A stretch of DNA of 40,101 nt from a virus (taxonomy: Duplodnaviria > Heunggongvirae > Uroviricota > Caudoviricetes), in the IMG/VR virus record IMGVR_UViG_2718217868_000001, positions 1 through 40,101 of that record; one strand, given 5' to 3'. Below the pieces are notes generated by a model. That model did not search any database. It was not told the DNA's origin and saw only the letters and a list, made by a program, of their open reading frames with translations. Shown here one piece after another: positions 3,596 to 34,541 of the stretch. The position numbers and the translations under genes were made by a program. The stretch's first letter is position 1. Each line of letters opens with the position of its first letter.

Positions 3596-3889
3596 TCAGT
3601 CATTACTGATAGCGCCATAGCGTGAGCGGTAATTACGCAGGCGCGGGTCAATTTCAGGGAAGTGGGTATATGTGGCTTTGCGGAATGGTCGGATTGATGT
3701 CTGGTAAATTCGCTCGCGTTCTTCTTTCTCTGCAAGCCATATACAGTGGCGAAATTCCTTTTCCTCTTTCGTTTCCTGCGGTAGCGACATTATCCGGTCG
3801 TAGTTTTTCCTGAATTTATCCAGCACCTCCGATACGGAATTGCCGGAACAGCGGCGTGGGTCATCCGCACCATACAGAGGCGCTGGCAT
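3596..3889 (-). CDS. Hypothetical early-left phage protein (97 aa)
   Basis: ORF with an AAGGA site upstream. Confidence 0.5.
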
Positions 3890-9971: not shown

Positions 9972-10779
9972 GTTAGCTGATTACAGGCCTCAACTGGAGG
10001 TCGTGGAGCATCGCGTGGCAGATACCGAAGATGGTTTCATGCGCGTTGCTAACGAGATTACCGACAGTCTGCTGATGGCTGATTTAACCGTCCGGCAGCT
10101 GAAGGTGATGCTCGCTATCATGCGCAAGACATACGGATTCAATAAGCCGATGGATCGACTCACAAACACGCAGATAGCAGCCATGACAGGTATTCATCAC
10201 ACTCATGTTTGCGCTGCCAAGCGCCAGCTTATCGAGCGTAAATTCCTCATTGCTGATGGCGTGAAAATCGGAGTGAACAAGGTGGTTTCTCAGTGGATTA
10301 GCCAGGACAGCTTAACATTAGCTAAAACAGCTAATAAAACATTAGCCAAGTCGGCTAATGGGTATAAGCCAAGTCAGCTAAACACAAAAGACAATATACA
10401 AAAGACAATAAATACAAATACCCCCTTACCCCCTAACGGGGGCGGCGATGGGCAGGTTAAACCTGAACGTCGCAAGGCAGAACGAATCGACTACGAATCC
10501 TTCCTGAACGCCTACAACACCGAAGTCGGTGACAGACTTCCACATGCTGTTGCGGTCAACGAGAAACGCAAACGCCGCCTGAAGAAAATCATCCCGCAAC
10601 TGAAAACGCCAAACGTGGACGGTTTCAGAGCGTATGTCAGGGCGTTTGTGCATCAGGCCAAGCCGTTTTACTTCGGAGACAACGACACGGGCTGGACGGC
10701 TGATTTTGATTACCTGCTGAGAGAAGACTCGTTAACGGGAGTTCGGGAAGGGAAGTTTGCAGACAGGGGGATTGCATGA
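9958..10779 (+). CDS. Replication initiator, lambda O-like N-terminal domain (P22 gene 18-type)
   Basis: [32 protein letters not shown].. parallels the lambda O N-terminal domain; internal iterons; followed by a DnaB-type helicase as in P22. Confidence 0.8.
10311..10420. promoter_or_regulatory. Putative replication origin: iteron cluster plus AT-rich tract inside the O-like gene
   Basis: Repeated AGCTAA/GCCAAGTC motifs at roughly 11-bp spacing (10311..10385) followed by an A-rich stretch (10386..10420), analogous to lambda ori inside O. Confidence 0.5.
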
Positions 10780-12152
10780 GACAGGATATCGAAGCGAGCG
10801 TTATCGGTGGCCTGCTGATTGGTGGATTAACTCCAACCGCCAGCGACGTTCTGGCAACGCTAGAGCCGGAAGCGTTTTCAATTCCGCTCTACCGGAAAGC
10901 CTTCGAGGTTATTCGCAAGCAGGCGAGAAACAGAAACCTAATCGATGCGCTGATGGTTGCCGAGGCGTGCGGAGAGGAGCATTTCACGTCAATCCTGATG
11001 ACCAGCAAAAACTGCCCGAGCGCCGCAAACCTGAAGGGATATGCCGGAATGGTCGCGGATAACTATCACCGCCGTCTGGTGCTGGAAATCATGGATGAAA
11101 TGCGTGAACCAATCCAAAGCGGAACCATCGACGCATCGAGTCAGGCGATGGATGAACTTGTAAAGCGTCTTTCAGCCATCAGAAAGCCCCGTGACGAGGT
11201 TAAACCTGTACGGTTAGGGGAAATCATCACTGACTACACTGACACGCTTGACAGGCGTCTGAGGAACGGAGAAGAGTCAGATACCCTGAAGACCGGAATC
11301 GACGAACTTGACGCCATCACCGGAGGGATGAACGCAGAAGACCTGGTGATTATCGCCGCTCGTCCTGGTATGGGTAAAACCGAACTGGCGCTGAAGATTG
11401 CCGAAGGCGTTGCAAGCCGCGTTATTCCTGGTTCTGACGTCCGGCGCGGAGTGTTGATTTTCTCGATGGAAATGAGCGCATTGCAGATTGCAGAGCGAAG
11501 TATTGCCAACGCCGGGAGGATGTCGGTTAGCGTACTGCGAAATCCTGCATCGATGGATGACGAAGGCTGGGCGCGTGTTGCTAACGGCATGAGTCAGCTT
11601 GCAGATTTGGATGTATGGGTAGTCGATGCCTCGCGGTTATCGGTCGAAGAAATACGCTCAATCGCAGAACGGCACAAACAGGAAAACCCAAACCTGTCAC
11701 TCATCATGGCGGATTATCTTGGCCTGATTGAGAAGCCGAAAGCAGACCGCAACGACCTTGCAATTGCTCACATCTCCGGAAGCCTGAAGGCGATGGCGAA
11801 GGACCTGAAAACGCCTGTTATCTCCCTGAGTCAGCTTTCGCGCGATGTTGAGAAGCGACCAAACAAACGCCCGACAAACGCAGATTTGCGTGATTCAGGA
11901 AGCATTGAACAGGACGCAGACTCAATCATCATGCTCTATCGGGAAGCGGTATATGACGAGAACAGTAGCGCCGCGCCATTTGCTGAAATCATTGTGACGA
12001 AAAACCGTTTTGGCTCGCTTGGTACGGTTTACCAGCGGTTCTGTAACGGACACTTTGTTGCATGTGACCAGGATGAAGCCAGACAGATTTGCACACCATC
12101 AAATGCACCTGCTGCGCGTGGCAGACGATATGCACAAGGGGCTGACGTATGA
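10776..12152 (+). CDS. DnaB-family replicative helicase (P22 gene 12-like)
   Basis: 458 aa with a Walker A motif ([15 protein letters not shown]) and overall DnaB-like layout. Confidence 0.85.
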
Positions 12153-29309: not shown

Positions 29310-30605
29310 ATGGCTACTTGGCAAGGAACAAACGGCGGATTGTTGGCTGGTATCGGCGGCGTCAACTCAAACGCTCCGAGCGTAAATGACATCGGCAATA
29401 CGCTTCAGCTTATCAGGCAGAACAATGATATTGAGCGTTCAGGCGCTAACAATGTTGGGCTGACTGCTTTGCAAGGCCTTTCAGGTATTGCGGGGGTGTT
29501 TCAGCAGGAAAAGCAGGCTCAGCGGCAGAAAGAATTTCAGCAGGCGTACGCTAATGCTTATGCGTCTGGTGATCGCGGTGCTTTGCGTCAGTTGGCTACT
29601 CAATATCCAGACCAGATTGAATCCGTTCGTAAAGGCATGGGATTCATTGATGAAGACCAGCGTAATTCTATCGGCACCTTAGCGGCTGGCGCACGCCTTG
29701 CGTCATCGTCTCCAGAAGCAATGCAATCATGGCTGCAAAACAACGCCAAGGAACTGACTCGCGTCGGTGTTGACCCTAACAGCGTTGCTCAGATGTATCA
29801 GCAGAACCCTTCAGGATTTGGTGAGTTTGTTGATCACCTTGGAATGGCTGCTCTTGGTCCAATTGATTACTTCAATGTTCAGGACAAGATGGCTGGTCGT
29901 GAGATTGATCGCGGAAAACTTGCAGAGACAATCCGCAGCAATCAGGCTGGCGAGGCACTAACAGCACGAGGTCAGGACATCCAGATACGTGGTCAGAACA
30001 TCAGCGCACAGAATGCTGCGCTTTCCCGCGAAATACAAAGAGCAGAATTACAAGAAAAGGCTCTGGACAGACAGATAGCCAGAGAAAGCAATCAGTTAAA
30101 GCTTGAAGAGTTAAAGCAGAAACAGGCAGATGTTCGGCAAAAGGCTGACATAGCCCGCGCTGACAGGCAGGCCGCCGCTCAGGGTGCAGTTGATACGTTC
30201 AGTACCGCGCTTGACTCTCTCAACGAGATAGAGCAAAGCCCCGGCCTTTCAAAAGCAGTAGGAATTCGCTCAGCGTTTCCGACAGTTCCTGGCTCTGATG
30301 CAGCTAACTTTGAAGCAAGGCTCGACACCTTTAAAGCTCAAACATTCCTTCCTATGGTGCAGTCTCTTAAGGGTATGGGGGCTCTTTCAGATGCTGAGGG
30401 TAAAAAATTATCCGATGCGGTTGGTGCCCTAAGCCCCAAAATGAGTGAAAAGGCTTTTCGTGACTCTATCGGAAAGATTAGAAATCAGCTTGAAAGTAAG
30501 TTGAGCACTGTTAAAAAACAGTTTGATTATCAGGAGCCAGTACAGAATACGCCAGGACAACAATCTCCTGCTGGCAGTAACTTTTCTTCACTATGGGGTG
30601 ATTAA
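29310..30605 (+). CDS. Ejection protein gp20-like
   Basis: 431 aa in the conserved position and order. Confidence 0.75.
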
Positions 30606-33091
30606 TGGCTAAAGCATGGAAAGATGTTATCGCCTCTCCACAGTATCAGGCGTTAGCACCAGAACAAAAAGCGCAGGCTCAGGAGCAATACTTCAATGAA
30701 GTCGTGGCCCCGCAAGCCGGAGAAAATGCAGAGCAGGCAAAACAAGCGTTTTACTCTGCTTACCCTAGAGGTCTGCTAGAGAAGGGTAATATTGACATTC
30801 ACAATCGGCCTGTTGTTAAAAACTCTGATGGCAGCATTAGCACTGTGCGGAGCATGTCTACCAATATAGATGGTAGAGAGGTGCTGATTCCTACCGTTAG
30901 TGATGATGGTCGCATTATGTCTGATGATGAAGCTATTGATAACTTCATGAGGACGGGAAAGCATCTTGGTATGTTCGACAATCCTGACGATGCCACTGCA
31001 TATGCGGAGAGTCTGCACAACCAGCAAGCTGATGAATACCTCCCTAGGAAGAATCAAGCTACACAACAGCCTGTACAGCAAAGTACACAGGCAGCGCCTC
31101 AGCAGCAGAAAGAAGAACCATCATTGATGCAACAAGCTGGCGATTGGCTCACAGGTGGTCAAAGTGCAGGGCAAATTGCAGAGCAGGCTGGTCGTGGTCT
31201 GGTAAACATACCATTTGACGTATTGCAGGGTGGCGCAAGTCTGATTAATGCAATCAGCCAGGGGCTTGGTGGCCCCAAGGTTTTGGACGATGTCTATCGT
31301 CCAGTAGATCGACCAACAGACCATTATGCGCAAGCTGGTGAAACAATTGGTGGGTATCTCCTGCCAATTGGCACAGCGGCAAAAGCTGCTGGAGCGCCAG
31401 CAAAGCTCGCTGGAGATATCGGTTCCACAGGAAACATGATTGCAGGTTCTCTTGCTGATGCTGCAAATCAGGAGGGCGACTTTGCACAAAATGCTGCCAT
31501 TAACGGTGGTATCAATATTGGTGCTCAAGGCGTTCTTTCAGGTGTCGGGCGCGTTATTGCGCCAAGGGTTTCACAGGCTCTTGGTGGTGCAGCACTGAAT
31601 TCTGCTAATGATGTTTCCAGGATGGCAAAGTCAGGTGCTGGGCGTCAGTCAATTGCCAGTCAGGCCGCTAATGTGTCCGAAGATGTAGCAAAAGCGGCTG
31701 AGTCTGCTGGAATTGATATAAACGCATTAACACCAGGAATGCGATCTGGAAGTCGTGGAATTGCACAAGCCGAAGGCGCATTGGCATCAACACCAGGAAT
31801 TGTTCAGGACGCCCATCAGGCAGCATTTAACGAAATATCATCAAAGTTAAGTCGAAACCTTGATGAATTTGGGGCCGCATCTGGAACGGCATCAGAAAAA
31901 AGTGCGGCTATAAAACAAAGGATTCTTCAAAATCTTGATCAGATGAAGGATGCCGAGCGCGCGGCATGGGATGACGTGCGGTCAACAATGCCAAATCAAA
32001 AAGCAAGAATGCTAAATGGTAATGCCGTTATTCAGGCAGAGCGATCTGCTGGCATACCGCTTACTCCTGAAATGAAACAGTTTGTTCAGGCAAACAATCA
32101 AGGTGGAGTAACATTTGATGGCATGAAAGCATGGAGAGCGAAATTTGCTGATGCGGAGCAAAAATATAAGCGTAGCGGAGAGGCAAATGCGGCAAGGAGA
32201 GCAGGGGAAATACGCCGGGCAATTACTGATGATATGCGCACAATGGCGGAAAACGGCGGATTTCTTGATGACTGGCAGAAAGCTAATAATCTGTCTAAAG
32301 CTAGGTTATCAGCACAAGAGAGTGCAGAGTCTGTTTTCGGGCGTGATTTGGCAACAGATGCACTGATTACGAATGGAGTAAAATCCCTTCAATCATCGTC
32401 AGCTAAAGGTCTTAATGGTCCTGCAGGGTTCCATTCTATGATCCGCGCGCTGCCAGAATCAGAGCGTGTTCCTGCTATATCATCAATGTTGCAAGATGCT
32501 ATCTCGCATGGTGTACGTGGTGGCAAAGCTGATGCAGCAGGAATTAACCATATCGCAGGGATACTTACCCCACAAAATGTAAAAGCCATTAGCAGATATT
32601 CCTCAGAACTCGGAAGAATTGCTGATGCATATGGCACTCTTGCAAGAGCAGCAGTGAAACCTCAGCAGTATATTGAAAGAACAGGGAGAACTGCCAATGT
32701 ACTACGCGATCTGGATGCCGGTTTATCCAACGTCACATCAACAGTGTTAAATGCAATTGCCAACTCAACATCAGGTGCCATTGTTGGTGGAGCAGGAGGG
32801 GGCATTGCAGGCGCTGCCGCAGGTGCTTTAGTTGGCGCCGGGTTAAAAGGTGCTGTATCTAAAATTGCCACCACGCGTAGCGGCCGATATGCGATAGAGA
32901 AAGCAGTTCAGGAAGCCACCAAAGCAGTAAGAGCTGGCGGAAGTAAAGAAGCATTAGCGGCGGCGGAACGCAGATTTATGGCAAATAAAGCCGCCGTAAA
33001 AGCAATACGTGATGCAGTTGGAAACGAAGAGTTCAATCGCTTAGCGAGGGCTGGCATTGTAGCGTCGCTAAGCGGAATAGCACAGGAGTAA
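30605..33091 (+). CDS. Ejection protein gp16-like (828 aa, longer than P22 gp16)
   Basis: Large Ala/Gly-rich protein in the gp16 position. Confidence 0.75.
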
Positions 33092-33415
33092 TTAATCATC
33101 CATGGATGGATTGAGCTTATCTCGTGTTGATGTGGCGATTTGTCCTACATTCCTAATCCAAGATTTCAAATCCTTGATATTGTCATTGATTTCATGAATA
33201 TCTTCTTTTTTTAGCCTGTTAATATTATTCTCAATAATTTCAATGGATTGCTCAATATCAGATATGGTGAATGATAGTTTGTTCTTCTCATCTTTTATTG
33301 AGTTTTTAAGTGCTTCGTTCTCAGTCTTGAGGTCAGATATCTTTTGTTTTAAAGATGCCAGTTGGTACTGAACCACAATGAGTGCGATAGCTATCACGAT
33401 AACTGTTGTATACAC
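33092..33415 (-). CDS. Hypothetical membrane-anchored coiled-coil protein (107 aa), AT-rich
   Basis: N-terminal hydrophobic helix (MYTTVIVIAIALIVV) then a heptad-rich segment; very low GC; opposite strand to the late operon. Confidence 0.55.
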   Translation of the reverse strand: MYTTVIVIAIALIVVQYQLASLKQKISDLKTENEALKNSIKDEKNKLSFTISDIEQSIEIIENNINRLKKEDIHEINDNIKDLKSWIRNVGQIATSTRDKLNPSMDD

Positions 33416-33533
33416 ACCAACCTCCTTAGTTTTGAGCAGGATACCATGAAAAAAGTAAACATCTTTTGCCTACTTCACATTTGAATGGTTTGTCATTAGG
33501 ATGTTTCCGGTTTTTTCAAATATGGAAATTGAT

Positions 33534-33953
33534 ATGAAGAGGATTATCGGCGTTGTTGCTGGCGCTATATTGTTATCTGGGTGCGCAACTATTGTTGGTG
33601 ACGAAACACAGCTCGTGCAAGTGAACAGCAATCCTTCCGGTGCGAGCTTTAAAGTAAAAGACGAATCAGGCGTGATTGTTGCGCAAGGCAAGACCCCGCA
33701 AGGAGTAACTCTTGCCAAGTCAGATGGTAGTTATTTTGGCAAAAAGAGCTACCAGATCACTATGGAAAAGGATGGGTACGAACCAGTTACCCTGCCAATC
33801 AAAGCCAATGCTAATGGTTGGTATATTGGTGGAAACCTTGTGTTTGGTGGGTTAATTGGTTGGCTTGCTGTAGATCCTTTTAATGGTGGGATGTATACCT
33901 TGAAGCCAAAAGAGGCAAACGCATCTCTTATACCATCAACAAAGCAAGACTAA
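33534..33953 (+). CDS. Putative lipoprotein with a PEGA-like domain and glycine-rich C-terminus (about 139 aa)
   Basis: Signal peptide with a lipobox (LLSGC); ..VNSNPSGASFKVKDESGVIV..KDGYEPVTLPI.. resembles a PEGA domain; start at 33534 within the six-frame ORF 33501..33953. Confidence 0.65.
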   Translation: MKRIIGVVAGAILLSGCATIVGDETQLVQVNSNPSGASFKVKDESGVIVAQGKTPQGVTLAKSDGSYFGKKSYQITMEKDGYEPVTLPIKANANGWYIGGNLVFGGLIGWLAVDPFNGGMYTLKPKEANASLIPSTKQD

Positions 33954-33960
33954 TAAATAG

Positions 33961-33986
33961 GACCCACCTTCAGGTGGGTTTTTTGT
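33961..33986 (+). terminator. Intrinsic terminator between the convergent lipoprotein gene and mnt
   Basis: Hairpin cccacc/ggtggg followed by TTTTTT; overlaps the mnt stop codon. Confidence 0.7.
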
Positions 33987-34221
33987 ACAAATCCTTCAGC
34001 GTATCAAACACCATCTTCTTAACAAGCTCTGACTGCTCATCAGCGAGTCGTTCTGCATCGTCGCGATATCCAGTCACAGGCGATGGTTTTGATAGAGCAT
34101 CTTGGACGATTTGTAACAACTCGGAGTTCATTGATCTCCCATTCGCCTCCGCCCTGAATTTTAATTTCTCCCTTACTTCCATAGGCATACGGAAGTTAAA
34201 GTGCGGATCATCTCTAGCCAT
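33970..34221 (-). CDS. mnt: Mnt repressor (P22 immI)
   Basis: 83 aa, MARDDPHFNFRMPMEVREKLKFRAEANGRSMNSELLQIVQDAL.., matches P22 Mnt. Confidence 0.95.
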   Translation of the reverse strand: MARDDPHFNFRMPMEVREKLKFRAEANGRSMNSELLQIVQDALSKPSPVTGYRDDAERLADEQSELVKKMVFDTLKDLYKKPT

Positions 34222-34243
34222 GCCATCACTCCAAGTTAGTGTA

Positions 34244-34295
34244 TTGACATGATAGAAGCACTCTACTATATTCTCAATAGGTCCACGGTGGACCT
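34244..34295. promoter_or_regulatory. Divergent Pant/Pmnt control region with the Arc and Mnt operators
   Basis: -35 TTGACA (34244..34249); Oarc ATGATAGAAGCACTCTACTAT (34249..34269); Omnt AGGTCCACGGTGGACCT (34279..34295), as in P22. Confidence 0.9.
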
Positions 34296-34311
34296 ATATT
34301 GTGAGGTGAAT

Positions 34312-34473: not shown

Positions 34474-34541
34474 AGTTGAAGCCCCAACTGCGGGAACAGT
34501 CAGGGCTTCGGTATCAACAAATCGTCTTAGGAAATATTGAC
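34474..34541 (-). ncRNA. Putative sar-like antisense RNA covering the ant ribosome-binding site and start
   Basis: Minus-strand promoter (-35 TTGATA at 34571..34576, 17-bp spacer, -10 TATACT at 34548..34553) and an imperfect hairpin in the arc-ant spacer; P22 has a ~68-nt sar RNA here. Ends are estimates. Confidence 0.45.

What the first reader, a model, noticed from the sequence alone, without database searches (positions are those of the whole stretch)
33092..33953. Two-gene AT-rich insert where P22 carries sieA: membrane coiled-coil protein plus PEGA-like lipoprotein
Between the last ejection gene and mnt, P22 encodes the superinfection-exclusion protein SieA. Here the slot holds a minus-strand 107-aa protein (N-terminal membrane helix, heptad-rich body, very low GC) and a plus-strand lipoprotein with a PEGA-like domain and a glycine-rich tail, transcribed divergently from a 118-bp spacer. 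The lipoprotein gene ends at a terminator shared with mnt. The arrangement looks like an independently expressed lysogenic-conversion or exclusion module.
Basis: partly seen in the sequence, partly recalled or inferred. Interest (0 to 1): 0.65.

Follow-up and report, generated by a model that had tools for sequence, protein, structure and literature searches.

The report
Two swappable prophage envelope-protein gene cassettes
The region holds two real but uncharacterised prophage genes, an inner-membrane coiled-coil protein sitting exactly where phage P22 keeps its exclusion gene sieA and an outer-membrane lipoprotein; they are separate, independently shuffled cassettes rather than a pair, and were already listed as unknown genes 14 and 15 of Salmonella phage epsilon34.

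Summary
A 107-aa minus-strand ORF (33092-33415) and a 139-aa lipoprotein gene (33534-33953) diverge from a 118-bp spacer between ejection gene 16 and mnt. The arrangement is 97.5% identical to epsilon34 genes 14 and 15, published in 2008 as unknown-function genes of the "ant moron". The window is 100% identical to an E. coli H6 prophage.

New here:
- The minus-strand gene (hkcB) replaces sieA exactly at the start codon. It keeps the same 34-nt leader plus GTG as P22 sieA.
- In 120 viral contigs that leader heads at least 12 unrelated small ORF families. Most have an N-terminal hydrophobic segment, and only SieA has a known function.
- The lipoprotein pairs with at least six different slot occupants, or with none, so the two genes are not a functional pair.
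- The lipoprotein belongs to a very large, unnamed bacterial lipoprotein family. Its homologues sit in other phages' DNA-delivery moron slots, including the slot of HK97 gp15, a known exclusion gene.

Exclusion of incoming phage at DNA entry is the best-supported function, but it rests only on position and context. Interest is moderate: known genes and a known kind of element, with a newly visible cassette hotspot.

The parts
30605..33091 (+). Gene 16 homologue (DNA-transfer/ejection protein, 828 aa). It gives context, and its stop codon abuts the hkcB stop.
   Evidence: phrog_770, E 9e-226. RefSeq names it 'DNA transfer protein'. The last 40 aa are nearly identical in all hkcB-carrying phages examined.
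33092..33415 (-). hkcB homologue (epsilon34 gene 14). 107 aa, with an N-terminal membrane anchor, one long helix, and a conserved C-terminal motif W-x-x-NVG-x-x-A-x-S-x-x-DK-x-x-PS.
   Evidence: 98% identical to epsilon34 gp14 and 55% to HK620 HkcB. phrog_5962, E 6e-58. Alignment A2 has no indels. dN/dS 0.12-0.31. AlphaFold2 helix over residues 2-101.
33413..33446 (-). sieA-type leader including the GTG start: TGGTATCCTGCTCAAAACTAAGGAGGTTGGTGTG. It contains the Shine-Dalgarno sequence and a possible extended -10 (TGnTATCCT).
   Evidence: 33 of 34 nt identical to the P22 sieA 5' end, and the same leader heads unrelated ORFs. HK620 hkcB has the whole P22 PsieA region. In 120 IMG/VR contigs the ORF after the leader falls into at least 12 families.
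33416..33533 (.). 118-bp divergent intergenic spacer (GC 34%).
   Evidence: The leader-to-lipoprotein-ATG distance is constant at 85-88 nt in the viral contigs, whatever the slot cargo.
33474..33502 (+). Weak sigma-70-like site upstream of the lipoprotein gene (TTCACA-17-TAGGAT, 9 of 12 matches).
   Evidence: This is a consensus match only: 4 such sites were found in the region against 3.4 expected by chance. Homology to other lipoprotein cassettes starts at 33473-33495.
33534..33953 (+). Lipoprotein gene (epsilon34 gene 15), 139 aa. Signal peptide with lipobox LLSGC (Cys17 codon at 33582-33584), Ala at +2, a beta-sandwich at residues 24-96, and the conserved motif NGWYIGGN..FGGLIGW..VDPFNGGMY.
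33959..33982 (.). Bidirectional intrinsic terminator hairpin shared by the lipoprotein gene and mnt.
   Evidence: Annotated as a rho-independent terminator in epsilon34.
33970..34221 (-). mnt repressor gene (context, immI region).
   Evidence: Pfam Arc (E 4e-30) plus Repressor_Mnt (E 7e-19).
34474..34540 (-). sar antisense RNA (context, immI region).
   Evidence: Rfam RF00262, 73.4 bits, E 9e-15.

Best explanation
The region consists of two independent moron cassettes in the variable segment between gene 16 and the tailspike gene of an E. coli P22-like prophage.

Shown:
1. hkcB is an ORF-precise replacement of sieA. It starts at the same GTG behind the same 34-nt leader, and that leader drives at least 12 unrelated small ORF families in related prophages, most with an N-terminal hydrophobic segment.
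2. hkcB is a conserved protein-coding gene under purifying selection. It encodes an N-terminal membrane anchor, one long helix and a conserved C-terminal motif.
3. The lipoprotein gene is a separate unit (spacer, gene, terminator) that combines freely with different slot occupants.
4. The lipoprotein belongs to a very large bacterial lipoprotein family. Its homologues also sit in tail and DNA-delivery moron slots of siphovirus prophages.

Inferred:
- HkcB is made in the lysogen from the sieA-type signals. It inserts in the inner membrane N-out/C-in, like the first helix of SieA. Like SieA, it blocks DNA delivery by incoming P22-like phages at the inner membrane, probably by interfering with the gp16/gp20 conduit.
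- The lipoprotein is sorted by Lol to the outer membrane (Ala at +2). There it acts as a second, independent barrier at the outer-membrane or periplasmic step of phage entry, in the manner of Cor, Llp or Ltp. Because it lies in the late-operon orientation, it may also be made late in lytic growth.
For: Slot and leader:
- The leader is identical to that of P22 sieA, and HK620 hkcB carries the full PsieA region.
- P22 sieA with only 85 bp upstream is sufficient for exclusion from single copy (PMC10883804).
- Twelve cargo families follow the same leader, and 12 of the 14 slot-occupant representatives examined have an N-terminal hydrophobic segment.

hkcB:
- The hkcB stop abuts the gene 16 stop in 17 of 17 viral contigs and in all named phages examined.
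- dN/dS is 0.12-0.31 with no indels.
- The N-flank has no Lys or Arg, while the C-flank has 2-3. P22 SieA TM1 shows the same pattern.

Lipoprotein:
- Lipobox, Cys17 and Ala18 are invariant.
- One family member is fused to an OmpA-like barrel.
- Homologues lie between tail chaperone T and the tape-measure gene in E. coli HK97-like prophages. That is the slot of the HK97 gp15 exclusion moron (PMC3594210).
- Other homologues lie before the tape-measure gene in Proteus prophages, flanked by terminators and a promoter-like site, and between tail genes I and J.
Against: - There are no functional data for either protein.
- Neither shows sequence or fold similarity to any characterised exclusion protein. 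PADLOC gives nothing for the lipoprotein and only coiled-coil noise for HkcB. The Cor matches cover only the signal peptide.
- Lipoprotein homologues also occur outside prophages, among housekeeping genes in Enterobacter and Xenorhabdus. This suggests a general envelope role.
- The E. coli tape-measure-slot copy has no detectable promoter or terminator of its own.
- The -35 part of PsieA is not conserved in this window.
- The HkcB topology rests only on the positive-inside rule.
- Guilt by position is weak in a region known for high gene flux.
Confidence: 0.42

Rival explanations
1. Host-fitness (lysogenic-conversion) factors rather than phage exclusion. The lipoprotein would be an envelope-stress, serum-resistance or surface-property factor like lambda Bor, borrowed from a housekeeping bacterial family. 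HkcB would be an unrelated membrane modulator.
For: The family is very large (5482 representatives). It includes non-prophage chromosomal copies in Enterobacter and Xenorhabdus. Morons often encode such factors (PMC3594210).
Against: The phage copies lie repeatedly next to DNA-delivery genes in three different phage architectures, including a proven exclusion slot. hkcB uses the expression signals of an exclusion gene.
Confidence: 0.3
2. A cooperating two-component envelope module: the inner-membrane coiled-coil protein and the outer-membrane lipoprotein act together, like a spanin pair or a trans-envelope bridge.
For: The genes are adjacent and divergent. There are weak Rz-like spanin and DivIC/FtsL profile matches (E about 1e-3 to 2e-4, all below threshold).
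Against: Only 11 of 74 lipoprotein-bearing contigs carry hkcB. hkcB occurs without the lipoprotein in HK620, CUS-3 and SEN22 and in 9 of 17 contigs. A near-identical lipoprotein (1 aa different) is paired with a 59%-identical hkcB. The predicted topology puts the HkcB helix in the cytoplasm.
Confidence: 0.04
3. Functions for the phage's own lytic cycle. For example, these proteins could stop progeny virions from ejecting into lysing or already infected cells (Llp-like), or modulate the phage's own ejection proteins. They would be expressed mainly by late-operon read-through.
For: The lipoprotein gene lies in the late-operon orientation in all four phage contexts. The E. coli tape-measure-slot copy lacks its own signals. 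P22 sieA is itself up-regulated on induction (PMC10883804).
Against: hkcB is antisense to the late operon. The region is absent from many fully viable relatives (PMC2629481).
Confidence: 0.2
4. The minus-strand ORF is a chance ORF in AT-rich DNA, or a decaying remnant.
For: Low GC (33.6%), a GTG start and no Pfam family.
Against: A fixed length of 107 aa across homologues of 53-99% identity, dN/dS of 0.12-0.31, a strong Shine-Dalgarno sequence, and conserved N- and C-terminal motifs.
Confidence: 0.02

Closest known systems
Salmonella phage epsilon34 genes 14 and 15 (Villafane et al. 2008, 'ant moron') and HK620/CUS-3 hkcB
   Same: Same genes in the same order and orientation. The DNA is 97.5% identical over 32900-34300, gp14 is 98% identical and gp15 97.8%.
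   Different: The host here is E. coli (100% match to strain H6). The tailspike and the gene 16 N-terminal part differ. The published description stops at 'unknown function'.
P22 SieA (inner-membrane superinfection exclusion protein; Leavitt et al. 2024)
   Same: Same slot and orientation, and the same leader and GTG start. Both are membrane proteins with an uncharged N-terminus followed by a Lys/Arg-rich flank. Both have a conserved C-terminal motif.
   Different: No sequence similarity (separate clusters in all-against-all BLASTP). HkcB has one hydrophobic segment against four scored in P22 SieA by the same hydropathy scan (three transmembrane domains predicted in PMC10883804). It is 107 aa against 164 aa. 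Its stop is 0 nt from the gene 16 stop, against 22 nt for sieA. Function is untested.
HK97 gp15 moron (YebO-family inner-membrane exclusion protein; Cumby et al. 2012)
   Same: Lipoprotein homologues occupy the same slot between tail chaperone T and the tape-measure gene in E. coli HK97-like prophages (PMC3594210). Both appear to be host envelope-protein families captured by phages.
   Different: A different protein class (outer-membrane lipoprotein against a small inner-membrane protein). No functional data.
Cor, Llp and Ltp exclusion lipoproteins
   Same: Phage-encoded lipoproteins in or near tail modules. Ltp targets the tape-measure protein (cited in PMC10883804).
   Different: Only the signal peptide matches Cor profiles (phrog_1119 residues 1-20; NF047972 E 0.19). 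The mature domain has a different fold.

Membership tests
SieA (types A-C) | Sequence homology to SieA, including the FxRYPxEAxxFNK motif | tested here: not met
   HkcB and SieA fall in separate clusters in all-against-all BLASTP at 1e-5. The motif is absent from alignment A2.
SieA (types A-C) | Three to four transmembrane helices | tested here: not met
   HkcB has one hydrophobic segment; P22 SieA has four by the same hydropathy scan.
SieA (types A-C) | Location between genes 16 and 9, antisense to the late operon, behind PsieA | tested here: met
   Same position and orientation. The leader plus GTG is 33 of 34 nt identical to P22 sieA. The -10-proximal part is shared in the window, and the full PsieA region is present in HK620.
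SieA (types A-C) | Blocks DNA injection by P22-like phages | not testable with these tools
   Needs plating, K+ efflux and DNA-entry assays.
Moron (Juhala/Hendrix definition) | Present or absent among otherwise syntenic relatives, and deviant GC content | tested here: met
   Slot contents vary. hkcB GC is 33.6% and lipoprotein GC 44.8%, against 47.6% for the window.
Moron (Juhala/Hendrix definition) | Own promoter and terminator | tested here: inconclusive
   The terminator is clear. The promoters are only consensus-level or inferred from the sieA leader. The Proteus copy has flanking terminators and a promoter-like site, but the E. coli tape-measure-slot copy does not.
Bacterial lipoprotein (Lgt/LspA substrate), outer-membrane sorted | Signal peptide with lipobox [LVI][ASTVI][GAS]C, and a non-Asp residue at +2 | tested here: met
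   LLSGC-A. Cys17 and Ala18 are invariant in 43 of 43 homologues. Actual localisation is not testable here.
Pfam PEGA domain (PF08308) | Score above the Pfam gathering threshold | tested here: not met
Cor exclusion lipoprotein (NF047972 / phrog_1119) | Homology over the mature protein | tested here: not met
   The match is limited to signal-peptide residues 1-20 or 1-30, with E 0.0034 and 0.19.
Rz-like i-spanin | Profile match, lysis-cassette location, a partner o-spanin, and N-in/C-out topology | tested here: not met
   There are only weak matches (E about 1e-3). The gene is not in a lysis cassette. It assorts independently of the lipoprotein. The positive-inside rule predicts C-in.
FtsB/DivIC/FtsL | Score above the curated thresholds | tested here: not met
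   DivIC scores 21.3 bits against 28.9. FtsL models score 15-16 bits against 42-55.
HK97 gp15 / YebO family | Sequence homology | not tested
Only slot equivalence was established.

The most novel reading that the evidence does not exclude
The sieA position of P22-like prophages would be an ORF-precise cassette hotspot. A fixed 34-nt leader and start codon would express any one of at least a dozen unrelated small envelope proteins, each a distinct entry-blocking exclusion factor. HkcB would be one new family. The neighbouring lipoprotein would be another: an outer-membrane factor that phages of several architectures have repeatedly captured from a large bacterial family into slots beside their DNA-delivery genes.
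Probability: 0.3. Interest if true: 0.7.

Novelty: new variant of a known kind. Interest (0 to 1): 0.45.

Why it matters
Only one occupant of this prophage slot, SieA, has a known function, and its mechanism was worked out only in 2024. If the other occupants are also entry blockers, the slot offers a ready-made panel of about a dozen small envelope proteins. These could be used to probe how short-tailed phages build their trans-envelope DNA conduit. The shared leader also gives a simple sequence handle for finding more of them in genomes. The lipoprotein belongs to a very large unnamed bacterial family, so any phenotype found for the phage copy would give a first functional clue for thousands of bacterial proteins.

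Tried and rejected
- Profile searches (Pfam, NCBIfam, PHROGs, PADLOC). They gave only unknown-function PHROGs, sub-threshold PEGA, and coiled-coil noise for HkcB such as SMC, JetC, spanin and DivIC.
- PDB sequence-profile search with A1. Only weak CnaB-type matches, best E 0.0055.
- The HkcB model is a single helix, so no fold search was run on it.
- Co-variation of hkcB with the gp16 C-terminus. None found: hkcB at 59% identity goes with gp16 C-termini at 94%, and hkcB at 85% with 67%. The stop-stop junction is therefore a recombination joint, not evidence of co-evolution.
- Literature searches by accession numbers, by 'ant moron' and by 'P22-like + hotspot + sieA + defense'. They returned nothing beyond the epsilon34 paper.
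- Homology between HkcB and the 109-aa membrane coiled-coil slot family. hhalign gave 68% probability over 50 columns, which is suggestive but not reliable for coiled coils.
- A remnant of the lipoprotein gene in P22 itself. None found.

Full report
**1. What is there**

The window carries a P22-like late region. Ejection gene 16 (30605-33091, phrog_770) is followed by a minus-strand 107-aa ORF (33092-33415) and a 118-bp spacer. Next come a plus-strand lipoprotein gene (33534-33953), a hairpin terminator (33959-33982), mnt (33970-34221, minus strand), arc, sar RNA (34474-34540, Rfam 73 bits), ant and the tailspike gene.

The only coordinate correction concerns the lipoprotein start. It is ATG 33534 rather than the upstream ATG 33501, as shown by the homologue alignment and by the epsilon34 and RefSeq annotations.

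**2. It is already in the literature as unknown genes**

Bases 32900-34300 are 97.5% identical to Salmonella phage epsilon34, where the two ORFs are genes 14 and 15. Villafane et al. 2008 (PMC2629481) describe them as unknown-function genes of the "ant moron". [quoted passage not shown] The stretch 32992-34053 is 100% identical to a prophage of E. coli strain H6. Only 10 of 5426 complete E. coli genomes carry both genes together, whereas 405 carry some part of that stretch.

**3. The minus-strand gene is real**

Fourteen homologues of 53-99% identity are all exactly 107 aa with no indels. They share an invariant membrane segment (V7 I8 A9 I10 ... Q16, Q18), a variable helical middle, and a strongly conserved C-terminal motif, W-x-x-NVG-x-x-A-x-S-x-x-DK-x-x-PS. 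dN/dS is 0.12-0.31 for diverged pairs. Longer database versions are gene-caller over-extensions into non-conserved upstream DNA. AlphaFold2 gives one continuous helix over residues 2-101.

The N-terminus carries no Lys or Arg in any member, and HK620-type proteins have Glu3. The flank after the membrane segment carries 2-3 Lys/Arg. The first helix of P22 SieA shows the same pattern. By the positive-inside rule the helical body is more likely cytoplasmic (N-out/C-in). This is an inference, not a measurement. Matches to spanin, DivIC/FtsL, SMC and similar profiles are all below threshold, as expected for a membrane anchor followed by a coiled coil.

**4. The main new result: hkcB is an ORF-precise replacement of sieA**

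In P22, sieA lies on the minus strand just after gene 16 and has an annotated promoter, PsieA. The 34 nt ending in the hkcB GTG start are TGGTATCCTGCTCAAAACTAAGGAGGTTGGTGTG (window 33413-33446). They are 33 of 34 nt identical to the corresponding P22 sieA sequence, and about 10 further upstream nt are also shared. HK620 hkcB carries the complete P22 PsieA region. Leavitt et al. 2024 showed that sieA with only 85 bp upstream confers full exclusion from a single copy (PMC10883804).

The ORF that follows the GTG falls into at least 12 mutually unrelated families:

| Family after the leader | Contigs |
|---|---|
| 129-aa secreted protein | 22 (plus 1 divergent singleton) |
| 109-aa membrane coiled-coil protein | 22 |
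| HkcB | 17 |
| SieA | 11 |
| 62-aa protein | 10 |
| 140-aa protein | 8 |
| 75-aa protein | 7 |
| 106-aa protein | 7 |
| 116-aa protein | 5 |
| 149-aa protein | 4 |
| 99-aa protein | 4 |
| 68-aa YobH-like protein | 2 |

One further contig gave only a truncated 15-aa ORF that matches the start of the 149-aa family.

None except SieA has a known function, and none has a Pfam family. I examined 14 slot-occupant representatives: these families, with three HkcB variants, plus the Gally 171-aa lipoprotein. Twelve of them have an N-terminal hydrophobic segment.

The hkcB stop abuts the gene 16 stop with 0 nt between them in 17 of 17 contigs and in every named phage examined. sieA instead sits 22 nt away, next to a different gp16 C-terminal type. 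hkcB alleles do not co-vary with the gp16 C-terminus.

**5. The lipoprotein is a separate cassette**

Its signal peptide, lipobox Cys17 and Ala at +2 are invariant in 43 of 43 homologues. By the standard +2 rule for E. coli lipoprotein sorting, this predicts Lol-dependent transfer to the outer membrane.

The family is very large: 5482 representatives at 50% identity with E <= 1e-3. It is not covered by Pfam or NCBIfam, apart from a weak LEPBI_I2678 match. One member is fused to an OmpA-like barrel.

**6. Independent assortment**

Among 74 IMG/VR contigs with the same lipoprotein gene (at least 96% identical), the adjacent minus-strand slot holds the following:

| Neighbour in the slot | Contigs |
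|---|---|
| 129-aa secreted protein | 20 |
| 171-aa lipoprotein with no sieA-type leader (as in phages Gally and 720R6) | 17 |
| HkcB | 11 |
| 109-aa membrane coiled-coil protein | 11 |
| 62-aa protein | 4 |
| 75-aa protein | 2 |
| Nothing | about 9 |

The distance from the leader to the lipoprotein ATG stays at 85-88 nt. hkcB occurs without the lipoprotein in HK620, CUS-3 and SEN22. One Salmonella contig combines a lipoprotein that differs by 1 aa with an hkcB only 59% identical. The pairing in this window is therefore one combination among many, and a two-component mechanism is very unlikely.

**7. Where else the lipoprotein sits**

- Homologues of 68-81% identity lie between tail chaperone T and the tape-measure gene in E. 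coli HK97-like prophages and other siphovirus contigs.
- Others lie immediately before the tape-measure gene in Proteus prophages. There the gene is bracketed by terminators and has a promoter-like site.
- Others lie between tail genes I and J.
- The slot between T and the tape-measure gene is exactly that of the HK97 gene 15 moron, a proven exclusion gene derived from the host YebO family (PMC3594210).
- Other homologues are ordinary chromosomal genes in Enterobacter and Xenorhabdus.
- Only three isolated phages in the phage collection carry the gene.

**8. Interpretation**

The genetics are solid. There are two cassettes in a high-flux slot, and one of them sits behind the sieA expression signals. 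The function is inferred.

The most economical reading is that HkcB is an alternative occupant of an exclusion slot. It would act at the inner membrane on the incoming ejection-protein conduit. The lipoprotein would be an outer-membrane factor that affects phage entry, recruited from a host family much as gp15 was from YebO.

Several points count against this reading:
- There is no similarity to any characterised exclusion protein.
- Non-prophage homologues exist.
- Promoter evidence in this window is absent or weak.
- Guilt by position is generally a weak argument.

A host-fitness role, especially for the lipoprotein, is a serious rival. A role in the phage's own late cycle is also possible, because the lipoprotein gene is always co-oriented with the late operon.

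**9. Verdict**

The genes are already catalogued, so the finding is not new as an object. The cassette behaviour behind a fixed sieA leader, and the recurrent capture of the lipoprotein family next to DNA-delivery genes, are useful and testable additions.

**Caveats**

The IMG/VR counts come from a truncated, non-dereplicated sample. Topology and localisation are rule-based predictions.

Noticed in passing
window 33413-33446 (minus strand); L019, L020, L021, L029, L030-L149: A 34-nt leader plus GTG start is shared by P22 sieA, hkcB and at least 10 other unrelated small ORF families in the same prophage slot. It contains TGnTATCCT, a possible extended -10 element that is conserved in all contexts, whereas the annotated PsieA -35 is not.
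   Followed up: yes
window 30605-33091: The gene 16 homologue is 828 aa, about 110 aa longer than in HK620, CUS-3 or epsilon34 (691-722 aa). tblastn aligns the first 265 aa to those phages in two pieces covering only 57%. The full N-terminal part is shared with Escherichia phage CurroJimenez_Bas106 (99%). The extra segment (roughly residues 55-165) was not characterised.
   Followed up: partly
L018 4645-4977 and 5001-5324: One metagenomic P22-like prophage carries the 109/110-aa membrane coiled-coil ORF (phrog_8100 family) in tandem, directly upstream of hkcB on the same strand. hhalign suggests the two families may be distantly related (68% probability, 50 columns).
   Followed up: partly
L017 4514-4918 (Leclercia) and L003 1925-2440 (phage Gally): Other lipoproteins unrelated to the window's occupy neighbouring positions. 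A 134-aa lipoprotein is divergent from hkcB in Leclercia. A 171-aa Gln-rich lipoprotein (phrog_6067) sits in the sieA position in Gally, 720R6 and VSe13, with homologues in a Proteus phage.
   Followed up: partly
L006, L008, L009, L010 (about 10261-11424): The E. coli HK97-like prophages that carry the lipoprotein homologue before the tape-measure gene also carry a porin gene (Pfam Porin_1) inserted between tail genes M and L. This is a second envelope moron in the same tail operon.
   Followed up: no
P0163 (365 aa): One member of the lipoprotein family is fused to a C-terminal OmpA-like transmembrane beta-barrel (residues 165-363). This fits an outer-membrane location for the family.
   Followed up: partly
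L129 (about 3608-3712): One sieA-carrying viral contig has a 35-aa remnant of the lipoprotein gene (100% identical), 65 nt from the leader. This suggests past deletion of the lipoprotein cassette next to sieA.
   Followed up: no
L002 (CUS-3) and L029 (HK620) gene 16: In my global alignment the CUS-3 and HK620 gene 16 products are 78% identical overall (92% in the first 300 aa, 64% in the last 150). Leavitt et al. 2024 state 26%. I did not resolve the discrepancy.
   Followed up: no
L225 3629-3910 and L226 3628-3912: In the prophages with the lipoprotein between tail genes I and J, a 93-94-aa secreted protein (signal peptide MKKF/LxLALxLLLP) lies directly upstream of the lipoprotein gene. It is another small envelope ORF in the same moron.
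   Followed up: no
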